Positions 60,597 through 64,000 of a stretch of DNA of 64,000 bases are shown one piece after another (position 1 is the stretch's first letter; each line of letters opens with the position of its first letter). The translations under genes were made by a program, and so were the position numbers. This stretch comes from Lentisphaeria bacterium (GTDB lineage: Bacteria; Verrucomicrobiota; Lentisphaeria; Victivallales; UBA1829): assembly GCA_003526375.1 (NCBI GenBank), contig DPDG01000114.1:60818-124817 (forward strand), in the 5' to 3' direction. Under the pieces are notes generated by a model. It was not told the DNA's origin. It worked only from the letters and a program-made list of their open reading frames with translations, and did not search any database.

Positions 60597-60673
60597 GCAC
60601 CCGTAGCTCAGTTGGATAGAGCGTCTGCCTCCGGAGTAGAAGGTCGTGAGTTCAAGTCTCGCCGGGTGCACCA
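60597..60673 (+). tRNA. tRNA-Arg (anticodon CCG), CCA encoded
   Basis: Hand-folded cloverleaf: acceptor GCACCCG/CGGGTGC, D arm GCTC-AGTTGGATA-GAGC, anticodon arm TCTGC-CTCCGGA-GTAGA (anticodon CCG), T arm GTGAG-TTCAAGT-CTCGC, discriminator A, CCA. Confidence 0.93.
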
Positions 60674-60910
60674 TCTTATTTTATTTCTAAGTGCTTATCT
60701 ACAAGCTATTTATAAAGCTTAATAACTTATCGTTTGCCTTTCATTGTTTTTCGATTGTTTTCCATTCTTTTCGAGTGTCAAAATACCGTGAAGGTCTACC
60801 GAACGTCCACCACTTTTTTGAATCTACCCCTCAAGTTACTTTTTTCAAGTATTTTCTTCAGGAATGATCTAATCGCATGTCTCTATCCCTGTAGTTTGGC
60901 AGGAAATGGG

Positions 60911-60997
60911 CTCCTCGGACGCATCACGGACGTTTCTCGGACGCTCCCCGGACGGATAGAAAGCTTGCAATTTGAGGCTCCTCGGACGTTTCGGACG
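60911..60997 (+). repeat. CGGACG direct-repeat array (4 copies at exactly 11-bp spacing plus a CGGACGTTTCGGACG dyad)
   Basis: CGGAC starts at 60916, 60927, 60938, 60949, 60983 and 60992. Both blocks open with CTCCTCGGACG. Confidence 0.9.
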
Positions 60998-61100
60998 CTT
61001 TGTCGCAATTTTTTATATATGCGCAACCTACGCGCACTCGCGCGAGGCTGTGCCCAAAGGAAGGAGATCATACTACCCCCTGCTGTATTCATAAGTCACC

Positions 61101-61147
61101 CCGAACTTTCCGAACTTTTCCGAACTTGTTCCGAACTTCCTCCGAAC
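61101..61147 (+). repeat. CCGAAC(T/A)T direct-repeat array, 5 copies at 9-11-bp spacing
   Basis: CCGAAC starts at 61101, 61110, 61120, 61131 and 61142. Confidence 0.9.
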
Positions 61148-61412
61148 ATGATTAGCCTCAAAAATGGCAAAGTTAGGAGGAAAAGGCTGAAAAAGATGTG
61201 CAGACAAGCTATTCTTATCATTTAAACAGTAACATTACACGGAGGATACCATGAGAGTTGATGCTTTTCTGAATGCATTCGATGCCATTGCCGCGAGTGT
61301 TGGACTTGCGTAGACTCCCCCAGAAGACAGCCCGTTTGCACAGTAAAGGTAGGAAGGCGCTGACTGTCGCGGATATCAGCCATGGCTCCATTTGTCTTAT
61401 CCATGGATTCTT

Positions 61413-61482
61413 GGGACGGTAGTGGGACGGATTTAGGACTGGTAAATAGCAGAGAAATGGGCGTATGGGACGGATGGGACGG
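61413..61482 (+). repeat. GGGACGG direct-repeat array
   Basis: GGGACGG at 61413, 61424, 61467 and 61476, with a degenerate AGGACTGG at 61435. Spacings are 11, 11 and 9 bp. Confidence 0.85.
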
Positions 61483-61542
61483 ATATTTTTGATTTCTTGG
61501 TTTGCATGCGCCTGCGCGCGTGTAAGCGCGCATAAGCTAAGC

Positions 61543-61682
61543 TCGGACATTTCGGACACATATTTTCAAGTCCTTATAAGGGCAGATAGAGACGTTTATT
61601 TTTCTCCGGACATTTCGGACCGTTTTTCAGAACTCTTATATAGACACCTTTTTGCGATTCTATCTCTCCGGACATTTCGGAC
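61543..61682 (+). repeat. Degenerate ~62-64-bp tandem units each carrying CGGACATTTCGGAC
   Basis: Exact 14-mer at 61543, 61607 and 61669. The inter-copy sequences are related (TTTTCA..CTTATA). Confidence 0.9.
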
Positions 61683-61746
61683 ATATATTTACTTACGCGT
61701 GTGGAAAAAAGTATATATTGGACAATGGCAGGGGACATATGTATTT

Positions 61747-61857
61747 TTTTTTGTTCCTGATAAGGAGTTTGAAAAAAGTGTCCGTTTTGTCCATGAGTCC
61801 CCTATTAGCCCTTTTTTGTTCCTAATAAGGAGTTTGAAAAAAGTGTCCGTTTTGTCC
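61747..61857 (+). repeat. Two 46-bp direct repeats (65-bp period) carrying the dyad in inverted orientation
   Basis: TTTTTTGTTCCT(G/A)ATAAGGAGTTTGAAAAAAGTGTCCGTTTTGTCC at 61747-61792 and 61812-61857, with one mismatch. GTCCGTTTTGTCC is the reverse complement of GGACAAAACGGAC. Confidence 0.9.
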
Positions 61858-61901
61858 GTGAACCTCCTGTCATACACCACCGTATCAACTCACTGCATGG
61901 T

Positions 61902-61944
61902 AAAAAAAAGACGGAGGGAAGGCTTGTACTCCTTCGACCTCCGT
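61902..61944 (-). terminator. Rho-independent terminator of the minus-strand DUF932 operon
   Basis: On the minus strand: ACGGAGG-TC-GAAGG-AGTACAAG-CCTTC-CCTCCGT followed by CTTTTTTTT. Confidence 0.75.
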
Positions 61945-62083
61945 AATGCTTTGGACATCCTCATGGCGCATCACTTCATGGGGCGGGTCTTCCGGACAGG
62001 AGGGCACAACAGGAGGCCTCCCACCGGAATCTCTTCACGCAGGGAAGAGTCAGCGGGACCTTATGATTGTTTCGCAAATGATA

Positions 62084-62806
62084 TCAGCTCCAGAGCTCCG
62101 GTCGGTTGCCGTCCAAACCGAAGCAGCGGTTCAGAGCGGCGTAGGAGACGTCCACCCGTTGCGGGGTGTATTTCCTGACCGTCTCCGTGAACGCATTCAA
62201 CAGGCTCCATCGGGTCGGCTCGGCGAACTCCTCGTGCGAGGGATTCTTGAATTCCTTGTACACCGGTACAATATCCGAGCTGTTGATTGCACCGAGTTCT
62301 GCGGCTCTGACGATTCGGCTTCTGGCTTCGTCGTCGTTGTCCAGATACGCCACTTTCAAGTCCTCGCAGACATTCTCCAATATCAGGAACTCGTTTTCGA
62401 GCTCATCGACGGCACGGTTCACCAGATCGCACAGCTCAATCCGCGAGGTGTGGCGACGCTTCAGAACCATGCTCCCGCCGAACGCCATGTTACTGCACAC
62501 CATCACACTGATTCCGGCTGTCAGCCCCACGGAAAAGCTCTTGTCGTGGCTGTTTCTGAGCCCGATACAGCGACACCATTCCAGCGAGGAACTCCTGTTG
62601 ATCTTCATCACGCCGAACAGCTTCGCACCCTCACGTGCCAAGCCGAACTGCTCCTCCAGAATCACCCACTGATGCGCCTGCACCACCTCCGTTACCGCCT
62701 CAATGACCTCATAATGCGGAACCGGTTTCCAGCTCGAAGTCGCCTCCGGCGTCGGAACCAGCGCGATTTCTTCCGTGTGGCGTAGTGACCACCGCCGCCC
62801 ATGCAA
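62084..62806 (-). CDS. DUF932-domain protein (phage/plasmid/ICE-associated)
   Basis: IGLRNSHDKSFSVGLTAGISVMVCSNMAFGG...KRRHT is the DUF932 core as I remember it. Confidence 0.65.
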   Translation of the reverse strand: MHGRRWSLRHTEEIALVPTPEATSSWKPVPHYEVIEAVTEVVQAHQWVILEEQFGLAREGAKLFGVMKINRSSSLEWCRCIGLRNSHDKSFSVGLTAGISVMVCSNMAFGGSMVLKRRHTSRIELCDLVNRAVDELENEFLILENVCEDLKVAYLDNDDEARSRIVRAAELGAINSSDIVPVYKEFKNPSHEEFAEPTRWSLLNAFTETVRKYTPQRVDVSYAALNRCFGLDGNRPELWS

Positions 62807-62821
62807 AGATGACTCATCGTC

Positions 62822-63607
62822 TCACCCCTTCCTCACGTGCCACAAACGGCACTTGTTTTTGTAAGGACAATCCGCGCAGGAAAAACCTGTCTCATTCGGA
62901 TAGAACACCTCCCTCTGCACCGCCGATTCGATTGTCTGCGCCAGCAATTCAAAACGCAGGAAATCCGCCTCATTGCGCTCGGTATAGTGCGACTCCACGC
63001 ATGGCGTTCTGGTCTTCGTCACGATATCGAACCGGAACAGCGGACTCCTGCCGGTCAGTTTTGTACGGGCGTAACAAAAAGCGGTCGCCTGCAAGTCCTG
63101 ATGCGCCTTGCCCGCAGACCACTTCGCGCCTGCCGTTTTCCAATCGACGATATACTCATGACCGCCGTCCTCCACGATCAGATCATACTCCCCGATCAGC
63201 GGCTTCGACAGCCCCGGAATCTCCACGGAAAACCCTTCCTCTACGCTCCTGACCGCAAAGTCATCCTGCCAGTTTTCGAGGCAGACAGTGAGCATGGCAA
63301 ATCCCGTTTGCAGCAGAGACCCGTAATCTTCTTTCGGCTTGTAGACGAGGTGTTCCACGGCATTGGTTTCCGCCTTGAAATACGCCTCGAACAGCTCTTT
63401 TGCATCTGCGATTTTCAGCTGCGGACCGCTCCTTGCACGCTGACTCAACGCCGCATGGAAGGCACGCCCGAACGGGAAGCAGCTGCACGTGTGTTCCGGC
63501 TTTGCATGTTCGAGATACTGGAACTTGAATTTCAGCGGGCATGTCAGGTAGCAGTGGAACGCCGAATACGACCAGTGCGGTTCCTTGCGCAACTCATTCA
63601 GGTTCAT
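62822..63607 (-). CDS. PD-(D/E)XK nuclease, Cas4/RecB-like with Fe-S cysteines
   Basis: N-terminal Cys (YLTCPLKFKF), nuclease core IGEYDLIVEDGGHEYIVDWKT, and C-terminal CADCPYKNKC (CX2CX5C). Confidence 0.8.
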   Translation of the reverse strand: MNLNELRKEPHWSYSAFHCYLTCPLKFKFQYLEHAKPEHTCSCFPFGRAFHAALSQRARSGPQLKIADAKELFEAYFKAETNAVEHLVYKPKEDYGSLLQTGFAMLTVCLENWQDDFAVRSVEEGFSVEIPGLSKPLIGEYDLIVEDGGHEYIVDWKTAGAKWSAGKAHQDLQATAFCYARTKLTGRSPLFRFDIVTKTRTPCVESHYTERNEADFLRFELLAQTIESAVQREVFYPNETGFSCADCPYKNKCRLWHVRKG

Positions 63608-63608
63608 T

Positions 63609-64000
63609 TCACGCCGCCTTTCCGTTGAACTCGTTGATCGCCAGACTGCACTGATTGCGCGACAGCTCCTCTACGGAATTCACCCGGAACCTTGCCGCGA
63701 TCTGCTGAGGCGTGACACGGGCGTCCCTTGCGAGGTCGAGCAGATACTTGATCTGTTTCGGAGACGCGGGACCATCAACATTCTGACTGCCTTTCCCCTT
63801 GCCGTAACTGCCCTTTCCACCGGAATAACTCTGTGACGATTGTGGTATTTGCTGTACAGCCGTACAATTACCGCTATGCAGCTCCGTTTCGACACTGTTT
63901 CGCACAAGATCAAAGGTCTCATGGATGCGGCTCTGAAGCTGTTCCGCCGTCAGACCGTCCGGGATTTCCACCTCAATGGAGGCGTGGTAGCTCTGGCTGG
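63609..64000 (-). CDS. Hypothetical protein, probably 5'-truncated by the right window edge
   Basis: The frame stays open upstream of the GTG at 63971 to the window end. Gly/Lys-rich linker (GGKGSYGKGKGS), then PKQIKYLLDLARDARVTPQQIAARF. The stop abuts the nuclease start. Confidence 0.5.
   Translation of the reverse strand, partial: SQSYHASIEVEIPDGLTAEQLQSRIHETFDLVRNSVETELHSGNCTAVQQIPQSSQSYSGGKGSYGKGKGSQNVDGPASPKQIKYLLDLARDARVTPQQIAARFRVNSVEELSRNQCSLAINEFNGKAA

What the first reader, a model, noticed from the sequence alone, without database searches (positions are those of the whole stretch)
60911..60997. Four CGGACG sites at exactly 11-bp spacing, then a 9-bp-spaced dyad
CGGAC begins at 60916, 60927, 60938 and 60949, a strict 11-bp register that puts all sites on one helix face. 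After a 30-bp gap, CGGACGTTTCGGACG lies at 60983-60997. Both blocks are introduced by the same CTCCTCGGACG 11-mer. Such strict phasing over four copies points to cooperative binding of a protein filament or oligomer.
Basis: seen in the sequence. Interest (0 to 1): 0.6.

Follow-up and report, generated by a model that had tools for sequence, protein, structure and literature searches.

The report
Orphan helicase-binding repeats of a gut island
The evenly spaced CGGACG repeats are real, conserved protein-docking sites, most likely part of the replication origin of a small mobile island beside a tRNA gene in a gut Victivallales bacterium. This copy has lost the helicase that should bind them, so it is a fairly ordinary feature in an unstudied element family.

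Summary
CGGACG starts at 60916, 60927, 60938 and 60949, and CGGACGTTTCGGACG lies at 60983-60997. It is the only chain of three or more phased CGGAC in the 5.2-Mb genome (about 0.0025 expected).

The array lies 240-320 bp inside an island inserted just 3' of tRNA-Arg(CCG). Nineteen distinct homologous arrays keep the cores, the 10-11-bp steps and the 33-34-bp gap to an invariant 9-bp dyad. Copy number varies from 2 to 5 and the spacers diverge.

More distant islands keep the same two-part layout with a different hexamer, CATACG. Across the order, such phased repeats sit beside genes for an SF3 primase-helicase whose best structural match is the SaPI5 primase-helicase. The motif class tracks one residue in the helicase's C-terminal wing (9/13 against 1/25). 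This trend is not significant after phylogenetic correction.

Best reading (about 0.55): iterons of a SaPI/PICI-type origin. They are orphaned here, because a 2-kb deletion removed the replication genes and the genome holds no such helicase.

Rivals are an operator array for another island protein and an excisionase-type filament site.

The scan had noted this only on this same window.

The parts
60597..60673 (+). tRNA-Arg(CCG). The island begins about 20 bp after its 3' end.
   Evidence: ARAGORN and Rfam tRNA at 65.8 bits. Sequence shared with sister islands at other tRNA genes starts 15-25 bp after the tRNA.
60739..60778 (+). Phased T-rich 10-bp repeat (TTTCGATTGT, 4 copies) in the 28%-GC stretch next to the tRNA.
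   Evidence: Tandem Repeats Finder and GC content. Its function was not examined.
60790..60810 (-). Two inverted copies of the core at an 11-bp step. Read on the minus strand they are GGACG and a degenerate TAGAC. In sister islands the same place reads ACATTCGTCCC twice on the plus strand.
   Evidence: Sequence, sister islands, and an 11-bp repeat GAAGGTCTAC in another genus.
60811..60910 (.). Central spacer of about 100 bp between the oppositely oriented repeat sets. It is AT-richer (37.8% GC) than the genome (51.6%).
60911..60954 (+). Four CGGACG units at an exact 11-bp register. This is the finding and the putative iterons.
   Evidence: Homologous arrays have 2-5 copies at 10-11 bp. As a single strand the stretch folds less well than shuffled sequence (z = +3.2).
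60955..60982 (+). Conserved spacer holding TTTGAGGCT. The distance from the last array unit to the dyad is 33-34 bp in all 19 arrays.
   Evidence: A related ATTTGAGC or ATCTGAGC sits in the spacer of the CATACG islands.
60983..60997 (+). 9-bp-spaced direct dyad CGGACGTTTCGGACG. It is present intact in nearly all relatives; the 19 compared arrays were retrieved by matching it, and two decayed copies (L006, L018) carry degenerate versions.
60998..61050 (.). AT-rich run (26% GC), then a GC-rich alternating purine-pyrimidine and palindromic tract. In relatives it reads TATATG followed by CGCGCATGCGCG-like sequence.
   Evidence: As single-stranded DNA it folds with z = -2.85.
61101..61147 (+). Five CCGAAC units at 9-11 bp. 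They occur only in the lineage with the 267-aa first gene.
   Evidence: Absent from the paralog on C64.
61251..61390 (+). Scar of a deletion of about 2.07 kb. The first ~13 codons of a 267-aa gene are joined, near 61291/61293, to the last ~100 bp of a 477-aa P-loop gene with weak DUF3987 similarity.
   Evidence: Alignment to the intact relative L047. Pfam search.
61413..61860 (.). Second repeat field with the same core. It holds GGGACGG pairs, three CGGACATTTCGGAC dyads at 62-63 bp, an AT-rich centre (31.6% GC) and two inverted dyads.
   Evidence: Its third unit is homologous to the repeat region that follows the helicase gene in L062.
62084..64000 (-). Leftward island operon: DUF932, PD-(D/E)XK nuclease and the next gene. 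It continues beyond the window.
   Evidence: Pfam search. The full operon is seen in L027.

Best explanation
The four CGGACG units and the CGGACGTTTCGGACG dyad are most likely iterons. Iterons are short docking sites for the winged-helix C-terminal domains of a self-loading SF3 (D5/P4-alpha type) primase-helicase.

Proposed origin layout: the six direct sites, the two inverted copies 110 bp upstream, and the AT-richer stretch between them form one SaPI/PICI-style replication origin. It lies at the tRNA-proximal end of a small integrated island.

Proposed mechanism, which is inferred and not shown: after excision, a helicase hexamer places several of its flexible C-terminal domains on successive same-face sites. 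It bends and melts the neighbouring AT-rich DNA and loads itself.

State of this copy: the sites are orphaned. A 2-kb deletion removed the island's replication genes, and the genome encodes no helicase of this type. The copy could replicate only with a helicase supplied in trans, or not at all.
For: Shown by tool results:
1. The phased chain is unique in the genome.
2. Cores, phase (10-11 bp) and the 33-34-bp distance to the dyad are kept in 19 distinct homologous arrays, while spacers diverge and copy number runs 2-5.
3. Sister islands place the array 0.3-1 kb upstream of a D5_N/DUF5906/Pox_D5 helicase gene (L027, L043, L061).
4. In 201 genomes of the order, 59 have this helicase. Phased 9-12-bp short repeats lie just 3' of the gene or a few hundred bp 5' of it, and the hexamer differs by lineage: CGGACG, CATACG, CAGACG, CCGTA.
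5. L074 and L076 keep the finding's layout with CATACG in every unit. It is three units at 11-12 bp, a spacer, then three at 9 bp, 250-470 bp after a tRNA.
6. L062, L063 and L098 have GTCCGaagcGTCCG, an AT-rich stretch, and in L062 and L063 three CGGAC units, directly after the helicase stop. L071 reads tRNA, helicase, then repeats. So the repeats follow the helicase and not the island end.
7. Helicases with H, N or D at position x of RxD[ILV]...RGY have phased CGGAC nearby in 9 of 13 cases. Those with T or R do so in 1 of 25. L043 also has RHD. CGGAC-associated helicases are polyphyletic on a tree built without the C-terminal domain, with 4-7 changes, and no independent pair goes the opposite way.
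8. The AlphaFold model of the sister-island helicase is confident (pLDDT 93.4). It puts that residue (H455) in the first strand of the C-terminal wing hairpin.
9. Its best PDB matches are the SaPI5 primase-helicase 7OLA, by fold (E 2.7e-17, TM 0.63-0.66) and by sequence.

From the literature:
- SaPI Rep C-terminal winged helices read 5-7-nt iterons, 6-12 per origin, in two oppositely oriented sets around an AT-rich region. SaPI5 iterons L2-L4 repeat every 9 bp (PMC9371898; bioRxiv 10.64898/2026.10.17.759575; PMC6092414).
Against: - No binding or replication data exist.
- After phylogenetic correction the covariation is not significant (sign test p = 0.125-0.25).
- This island's closest intact relative (L047) carries a different P-loop protein with weak DUF3987 similarity, not the D5-type helicase. 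The two helicases' C-terminal regions are unrelated. In this lineage the array may therefore be vestigial or read by another protein.
- SaPI/PICI origins lie immediately 3' of rep. Here and in sister islands the array lies 5' of the replication genes.
- The central stretch is only moderately AT-rich (38% GC).
- One-turn phasing of direct repeats is also the hallmark of excisionase-type proteins (PMC7498355).
Confidence: 0.55

Rival explanations
1. The array is an operator or enhancer for an island-encoded regulator, not the helicase. The candidate is the first gene of the rightward operon, called X here. X is 215 or 267 aa long and has a shared basic C-terminal domain. In this reading X binds the phased sites cooperatively to control the promoter of the replication operon.
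For: - The array, dyad, TATATG and GC palindrome always lie just upstream of the first rightward gene.
- X-215 (D5-helicase lineage) and X-267 (DUF3987-like lineage) share only an ~80-aa C-terminal domain (36% identity, E 2e-12). Both lineages have the same CGGACG array.
- A palindrome after a -10-like TATATG looks like an operator.
Against: - X is missing from many islands that keep the layout (L027, L074, L087).
- In those islands a good promoter lies 100-150 bp before the helicase gene, well away from the repeats.
- The distance from the dyad to TATATG varies from 17 to 29 bp, so the dyad is not a fixed -35 element.
- The motif tracks the helicase wing residue.
- The X model is of low confidence (pLDDT 66), so no DNA-binding fold could be shown.
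Confidence: 0.2
2. The array is a binding site for a recombination directionality factor of the Xis/Cox/Apl type. Monomers would bind one per helical turn to bend the island's tRNA-proximal arm for excision, and perhaps also repress nearby promoters.
For: - The sites are direct repeats one helix turn apart, in variable number, close to the att-side end of an integrated element. This is the pattern described for Apl, Cox and Xis (PMC7498355).
- The same core recurs at other places in the island.
Against: - No integrase and no small winged-helix or HTH_17 gene was found in the complete islands L027 and L028.
- The only integrase seen next to such a field (L044) belongs to a different element joined on as a mosaic. 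It also lacks an arm-binding domain.
- No CGGAC sites occur at the island's other end in L027.
- The array is 215-290 bp from the island end.
- In L071, L062 and L098 the same repeats follow the helicase gene and not the tRNA.
Confidence: 0.15
3. The array has no function. It is a slippage-generated 11-bp tandem repeat that happens to persist.
For: Copy number changes by whole 11-bp units between near-identical islands. L014 has 2 units and L039 and L042 have 3 identical CGGACGCTTCT units.
Against: - In the window and most relatives the spacers differ between units while the cores are invariant.
- The layout survives a complete change of hexamer in distant islands.
- The motif decays in visibly degraded copies such as L006, L018 and L015.
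Confidence: 0.03

Closest known systems
SaPI / PICI replication origins (iterons read by the Rep or Pri-Rep C-terminal winged helix)
   Same: - Short 5-7-nt repeats are present in 6-12 copies.
- The two sets are oppositely oriented around an AT-richer stretch of about 100 bp.
- A 9-bp register occurs in part of the array.
- The associated helicase in sister islands is the best sequence and fold match to SaPI5 PriRep (7OLA).
- The repeat hexamer differs between lineages together with the helicase C-terminal domain.
   Different: - The array lies 5' of the replication genes and next to the island end, not immediately 3' of rep.
- Most units are at 10-11 bp.
- This copy has no rep gene.
- The islands show no integrase, repressor or packaging genes.
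- The host is a Victivallales (Lentisphaeria) gut bacterium.
Satellite phage P4 alpha protein with its ori and crr repeats
   Same: JGI names relatives of the sister-island helicase 'P4 family phage/plasmid primase'. From my own knowledge, P4 uses short repeats bound by the protein's C-terminal domain in two separate clusters, as this island has two fields.
   Different: The repeat sequence differs. P4 has its own integrase and capsid-control genes. No test of P4 was made here beyond the family name.
Apl / Cox / Xis recombination directionality factor sites
   Same: Direct repeats lie one helical turn apart, in variable number, near an att end, with the same core at several places in the element.
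   Different: No integrase or small RDF gene was found in the islands. In related islands the repeats travel with the helicase gene and not with the att end.
Iteron plasmids (RepA/pi type) and ParR-parC centromeres
   Same: Phased direct repeats are bound cooperatively. The 11-bp unit of R1 parC is the same length (my own knowledge).
   Different: Plasmid iterons are 17-22 bp long at about 22-bp spacing and are bound by WH1-WH2 Rep proteins. No RepA-type or ParM/ParR genes were found here.

Membership tests
SaPI/PICI-type replication origin | Short penta- to heptanucleotide iterons, about 6-12 copies | tested here: met
   There are six direct CGGACG units (60916-60997) and two inverted copies (60790-60810), shown. 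The definition comes from PMC9371898.
SaPI/PICI-type replication origin | Two iteron sets of opposite orientation flanking an AT-rich region | tested here: inconclusive
   The orientation requirement is met. The 98-bp centre is 37.8% GC against 51.6% for the genome and 43.8% for the whole non-coding field, so it is only moderately AT-rich.
SaPI/PICI-type replication origin | Lies immediately 3' of the replication initiator gene | tested here: not met
   The window has no rep gene. In sister islands the array is 0.3-1 kb 5' of the helicase gene. The same CGGAC repeats do lie directly 3' of the helicase in L062, L063, L071 and L098.
SaPI/PICI-type replication origin | Cognate self-loading helicase with a C-terminal winged helix encoded by the element | tested here: not met
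   The helicase is absent from this island and from the whole genome. It is present in sister islands, with 7OLA as best fold match and a winged-helix C-terminal domain.
SaPI/PICI-type replication origin | The initiator binds the iterons and the segment supports replication | not testable with these tools
   Only indirect evidence exists: the motif class tracks the wing residue, 9/13 against 1/25, with a sign test p of 0.125-0.25.
PICI (phage-inducible chromosomal island), at the level of the whole element | Integrase, master repressor, pri-rep-ori module, and phage interference or packaging genes | tested here: not met
   Pfam and PHROGs searches of the complete islands L027 and L028 find a helicase, a clamp-like protein, PD-(D/E)XK and DUF932. 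They find no integrase, repressor or packaging gene. The definition comes from PMC6092414.
RDF (Xis/Cox/Apl) binding array | Direct repeats spaced one helical turn apart | tested here: met
   Spacing is 10-11 bp in 19 arrays. The definition comes from PMC7498355.
RDF (Xis/Cox/Apl) binding array | Lies within an att arm beside integrase sites, in an element with a tyrosine integrase and a small RDF gene | tested here: not met
   No integrase or RDF-like gene is present in the islands. The L044 integrase belongs to a mosaic partner. In L071 the repeats follow the helicase gene and not the tRNA.
ParR-parC type centromere or iteron-plasmid origin | Adjacent par operon, or a RepA-type (WH1-WH2) initiator with ~20-bp iterons | tested here: not met
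   No such genes appear among the island proteins searched. The unit here is 11 bp with a 5-6-bp core.
Known structured RNA | Match to an Rfam family, or stable conserved folding | tested here: not met
   Rfam finds only the tRNA. The array folds worse than shuffled sequence (z = +3.2).

The most novel reading that the evidence does not exclude
The two registers are not an accident. They would form a fixed docking pad for one helicase hexamer, with about six same-strand sites split into a set at one-turn spacing (10-12 bp) and a set at 9-bp spacing. The counts are 4+2 here and in L027, and 3+3 in the CATACG islands. The 33-45-bp spacer is conserved, and an inverted pair about 110 bp away would serve the second hexamer. 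If so, this family would show in sequence alone how the six flexible C-terminal domains of an SF3 self-loading helicase are laid out on duplex DNA before melting. The same islands insert beside at least six different tRNA genes without any recognisable integrase, which leaves room for an unknown integration route.
Probability: 0.12. Interest if true: 0.6.

Novelty: new member of a known kind. Interest (0 to 1): 0.38.

Why it matters
If the reading is right, SaPI/PICI-style self-loading helicase origins extend to the PVC group (Victivallales, human and animal gut).

The family also offers natural specificity variants for testing how a winged-helix wing reads iterons. CGGACG pairs with H or N at one wing residue, and CATACG pairs with T. 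The origin layout differs from the staphylococcal model, being 5' of the genes and using two registers.

For genome annotation, it explains a 1.2-kb ORF-free repeat field beside a tRNA as the cis-acting remains of a decayed, non-autonomous island.

It does not reveal a new kind of system.

Tried and rejected
- **Coding.** ORFs across the array are not conserved in the paralog or in relatives, and an 11-bp period is not a multiple of three.
- **Known RNA.** Rfam finds only the tRNA.
- **Public phage and plasmid records.** No DNA match was found. The 27-nt pattern has no match in viral contigs.
- **Dyad as a -35 element.** I dropped this idea because the dyad-to-TATATG distance varies from 17 to 29 bp among relatives. 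The consensus promoter scan was uninformative.
- **L044 integrase as the family's integrase and arm-site binder.** I rejected this. Its only close homolog (96%, in G005) sits in unrelated surroundings. Homology to L044 starts about 30 bp before the start codon. G000, G001, G003 and G004 lack it.
- **att direct repeats.** None of 10 bp or more was found in L027 or L028.
- **Protein X as binder.** Only 4 homologs were found, and the model has pLDDT 66, too poor for a fold search.
- **Shared C-terminal domain between the two helicase types.** There is no similarity.
- **Covariation test.** It reached only 5-7 independent pairs, too few for significance.

Full report
**1. The observation**

CGGACG starts at 60916, 60927, 60938 and 60949, and CGGACGTTTCGGACG occupies 60983-60997. 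CTCCTCGGACG opens both blocks. Tandem Repeats Finder reports 60910-60954 with period 11 and 4.1 copies.

The hexamer alone is common in this genome: 5592 copies against about 2883 expected from base composition. The phasing is what stands out. Across the 5.2-Mb assembly there are 92 two-member runs of CGGAC at 9-11 bp and exactly one longer run, this one. About 0.0025 four-member chains are expected, or about 9e-5 for 11-11-11.

**2. Setting**

The window is contig C26 of a 120-contig assembly. Record titles of near-identical DNA name uncultured Victivallales / Lentisphaeria from gut metagenomes.

- The array lies 240-320 bp after tRNA-Arg(CCG) at 60597-60673.
- It sits in an ORF-poor, AT-richer field that runs to about 61900.
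- A leftward operon follows: DUF932, a PD-(D/E)XK nuclease and more.
- A paralogous island follows tRNA-Phe on contig C64. A third partial copy is on C17.
- Five species of the same genus carry many copies after tRNA-Arg(ACG), Met, Lys and Gln. Shared sequence starts 15-25 bp after each tRNA.

**3. Conservation of the array**

Pattern searches of genome and metagenome collections, added to the relatives, gave 19 distinct versions.

- Every version has 2-5 CGGAC units at 10- or 11-bp steps. Three have one extra unit 17 bp further upstream.
- The gap to the dyad is 33-34 bp in every version.
- The dyad CGGACGTTTCGGACG is present in all 19, though they were retrieved by matching it.
- An AT-rich run and a GC-rich palindromic tract follow in every version.

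Between the window and L005 the 30 core positions are identical, while only 10 of 18 array-spacer positions agree (read). Near-identical islands differ by whole 11-bp units: 2 in C64, and 3 in L039 and L042. Visibly decayed copies have lost or degraded the motif (L006, L015, L018).

About 110 bp upstream lie two inverted copies at an 11-bp step (60790-60810). In sister islands this reads ACATTCGTCCC twice. The stretch between them and the array is 37.8% GC.

As a single strand the array folds worse than shuffled sequence (z = +3.2), and Rfam finds nothing. It therefore looks like a duplex protein-binding site.

**4. This copy is a deletion derivative**

L047 and L045 have an almost identical left arm. 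They carry 2.07 kb that the window lacks between about 61291 and 61293. That stretch holds a 267-aa gene (X-267) and a 477-aa P-loop protein with weak DUF3987 similarity.

The 20-codon micro-ORF at 61251 is the 5' stump of X-267. Window 61293-61390 is the 3' end of the P-loop gene.

Another lineage (L043, L038) has X-215 followed by a D5-type helicase. L027 has that helicase alone. The window's genome has neither X nor the D5-type helicase.

**5. What the repeats travel with**

The L027 helicase has D5_N, DUF5906 and Pox_D5 domains, and sources call its relatives 'P4 family primase'. Homologs occur in 59 of 201 genomes sampled from the order. I examined 70 loci.

- Many loci have short repeats phased at 9-12 bp, either directly after the helicase stop or a few hundred bp before the gene.
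- The hexamer differs by lineage: CGGACG, CATACG, CAGACG, CCGTA.
- L074 and L076 reproduce the finding's layout with CATACG. They have three units at 11-12 bp, a spacer holding ATTTGAGC or ATCTGAGC, then three at 9 bp, 250-470 bp after a tRNA. In the alignment C..ACG is invariant, and positions 2-3 change from GG to AT in every unit.
- L062 and L063 have GTCCGaagcGTCCG, an AT-rich stretch and three CGGAC units right after the helicase gene. L098 has the same inverted dyad there.
- L071 reads tRNA, helicase, then repeats.

So the repeats follow the helicase gene and not the island end.

**6. Covariation and structure**

In the helicase C-terminus, the residue x of RxD[ILV]...RGY is H, N or D in 13 proteins. 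Nine of these have phased CGGAC nearby. It is T or R in 25 proteins, and one of these does. L043 adds another RHD case.

On a tree built from the ATPase core only, CGGAC association arose or was lost 4-7 times. Among the 5-7 independent pairs, none goes the opposite way; the wing residue changes in the same direction in about 3.7 and does not differ in about 1.3. That is too few for significance (sign test p = 0.125-0.25).

An AlphaFold model built from 71 homologs has pLDDT 93.4. It shows a C-terminal winged helix, with the covarying residue (H455) in the first strand of the wing hairpin.

The best PDB matches are chains of the SaPI5 primase-helicase 7OLA, by fold (E 2.7e-17, TM 0.63-0.66) and by sequence (E 7e-5).

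The published work on SaPI Reps describes:
- a C-terminal winged helix whose wing reads the bases of 5-7-nt iterons;
- 6-12 iterons in two oppositely oriented sets around an AT-rich region;
- a 9-bp register for SaPI5 iterons L2-L4;
- four C-terminal domains of one hexamer seen on successive iterons.

**7. Mechanism proposed**

The following points are shown:
- a conserved, phased, lineage-specific repeat array;
- its physical linkage to an SF3 helicase gene family;
- a trend for the hexamer to track a wing residue.

The following points are inferred:
- The helicase's flexible C-terminal domains dock on the six same-face sites, 4 at 11 bp plus 2 at 9 bp.
- A second hexamer uses the inverted pair.
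- The AT-richer DNA between or beside them melts, and the helicase loads itself, as proposed for SaPIs.

In this window the sites are orphaned.

**8. Rivals**

- **Operator array for protein X.** This is attractive because X's C-terminal ~80 residues are the only protein segment shared by the two lineages with the same array. But X is missing from islands that keep the layout. The helicase promoter in those islands lies away from the repeats. The dyad-to-TATATG distance is also not fixed.
- **Excisionase-type filament.** This fits the one-turn phasing. But the complete islands L027 and L028 have no integrase or small winged-helix gene. The L044 integrase belongs to a mosaic partner. The repeats follow the helicase rather than the tRNA.
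- **Pure slippage.** This does not explain invariant cores with diverged spacers, or the concerted motif change.

**9. Weak points**

- The closest intact relative of this island uses a different P-loop protein, whose C-terminus is unrelated to the D5-type one. In this lineage the left array may therefore be a relic, or be read by something else.
- A second field with the same core (61413-61860) lies where the origin of that protein would be expected. An unrelated island on C68 shows TTAAGAA repeats right after its DUF3987-like gene.
- The origin position 5' of the genes departs from the SaPI/PICI rule.

**10. Verdict**

This is a real and conserved protein-docking array. Most likely it is one arm of a SaPI/PICI-like origin in an uncharacterised, integrase-less island family of gut Victivallales, and it is non-functional in this copy. 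It is a new member of a known kind and of moderate interest.

Earlier notes of this scan concern only this same window. One follow-up on the neighbouring field had proposed an orphan origin. My tests of the deletion, the organism and the helicase link agree with it.

Noticed in passing
window 60674-64000; L027 (G003:C17:56500-64700); L028 (G003:C37:12300-17000): The island family is 4.5-8 kb long. It sits about 20 bp 3' of at least six different tRNA genes, and several copies occur per genome. Pfam and PHROGs find no integrase, and the ends carry no direct repeat of 10 bp or more. L027 and L028 share the right end ...CCTGTAAGAGACCTGTTGATTC. How the islands move is unexplained.
   Followed up: partly
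window 61251-61313 and 61293-61390: The Shine-Dalgarno-preceded 20-codon micro-ORF is not a leader peptide. It is the 5' stump of a 267-aa gene. In this copy, and in L044 and L041, a deletion of about 2.07 kb joins it to the 3' end of a 477-aa P-loop gene.
   Followed up: yes
window 61544-61860; G000:C9:1020-1060; L028 about 2199 (-): Each 9-bp dyad of the second field is followed, 15-17 nt on, by a second conserved box, CCTTATAAG, CTCTTATATAG or CTCCTTATCAGG, giving a composite module of about 40 bp. A GGGAC-N4-GGGAC dyad followed by TCCTATAAG recurs near the right end of another island copy on C9.
   Followed up: no
window 61017-61050 and 61505-61535: GC-rich alternating purine-pyrimidine palindromes lie next to TATATG. 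In relatives they read CGCGCATGCGCG or GCGCATATATATGCGC. One follows the left dyad and another precedes the second field. They could be operators, cruciforms or Z-DNA-prone sites.
   Followed up: partly
G000:C68:39700-39810 (minus strand): An unrelated island near tRNA-Ala carries a DUF3987-like gene, 28% identical to the L047 protein. Five TTAAGAA or TAAGAA repeats and one inverted copy follow it at once, which is a textbook rep-then-iterons arrangement.
   Followed up: partly
L044:646-3108 (-): An 820-aa protein with at least six tandem Xre-type HTH_3 domains lies beside an HTH_17-AAA-PDDEXK_9 protein and a 302-aa tyrosine integrase. All three belong to an element fused to a copy of the repeat field.
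   Followed up: no
window 61101-61147: The CCGAAC array has 5 units here and in L047, and 4 in L044. It occurs only in the lineage with the 267-aa first gene, between the TATATG/palindrome block and that gene's ribosome-binding site. In the C64 lineage the two GGGACGG units of the second pair have both changed, to GGTACGG and TGTACGG.
   Followed up: partly
L024 (G001:C26) and L025 (G003:C7): Only the first ~110 bp of the island, including the inverted pair, remain after tRNA-Arg(CCG), followed by unrelated DNA. These look like scars of lost or truncated islands.
   Followed up: no
G000:C17:3150-3870: A third copy of the DUF932/PD-(D/E)XK operon lies next to what look like a small antitoxin-like gene and a PIN-like gene instead of the repeat field. 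This is read from the sequence only, with no domain search.
   Followed up: no
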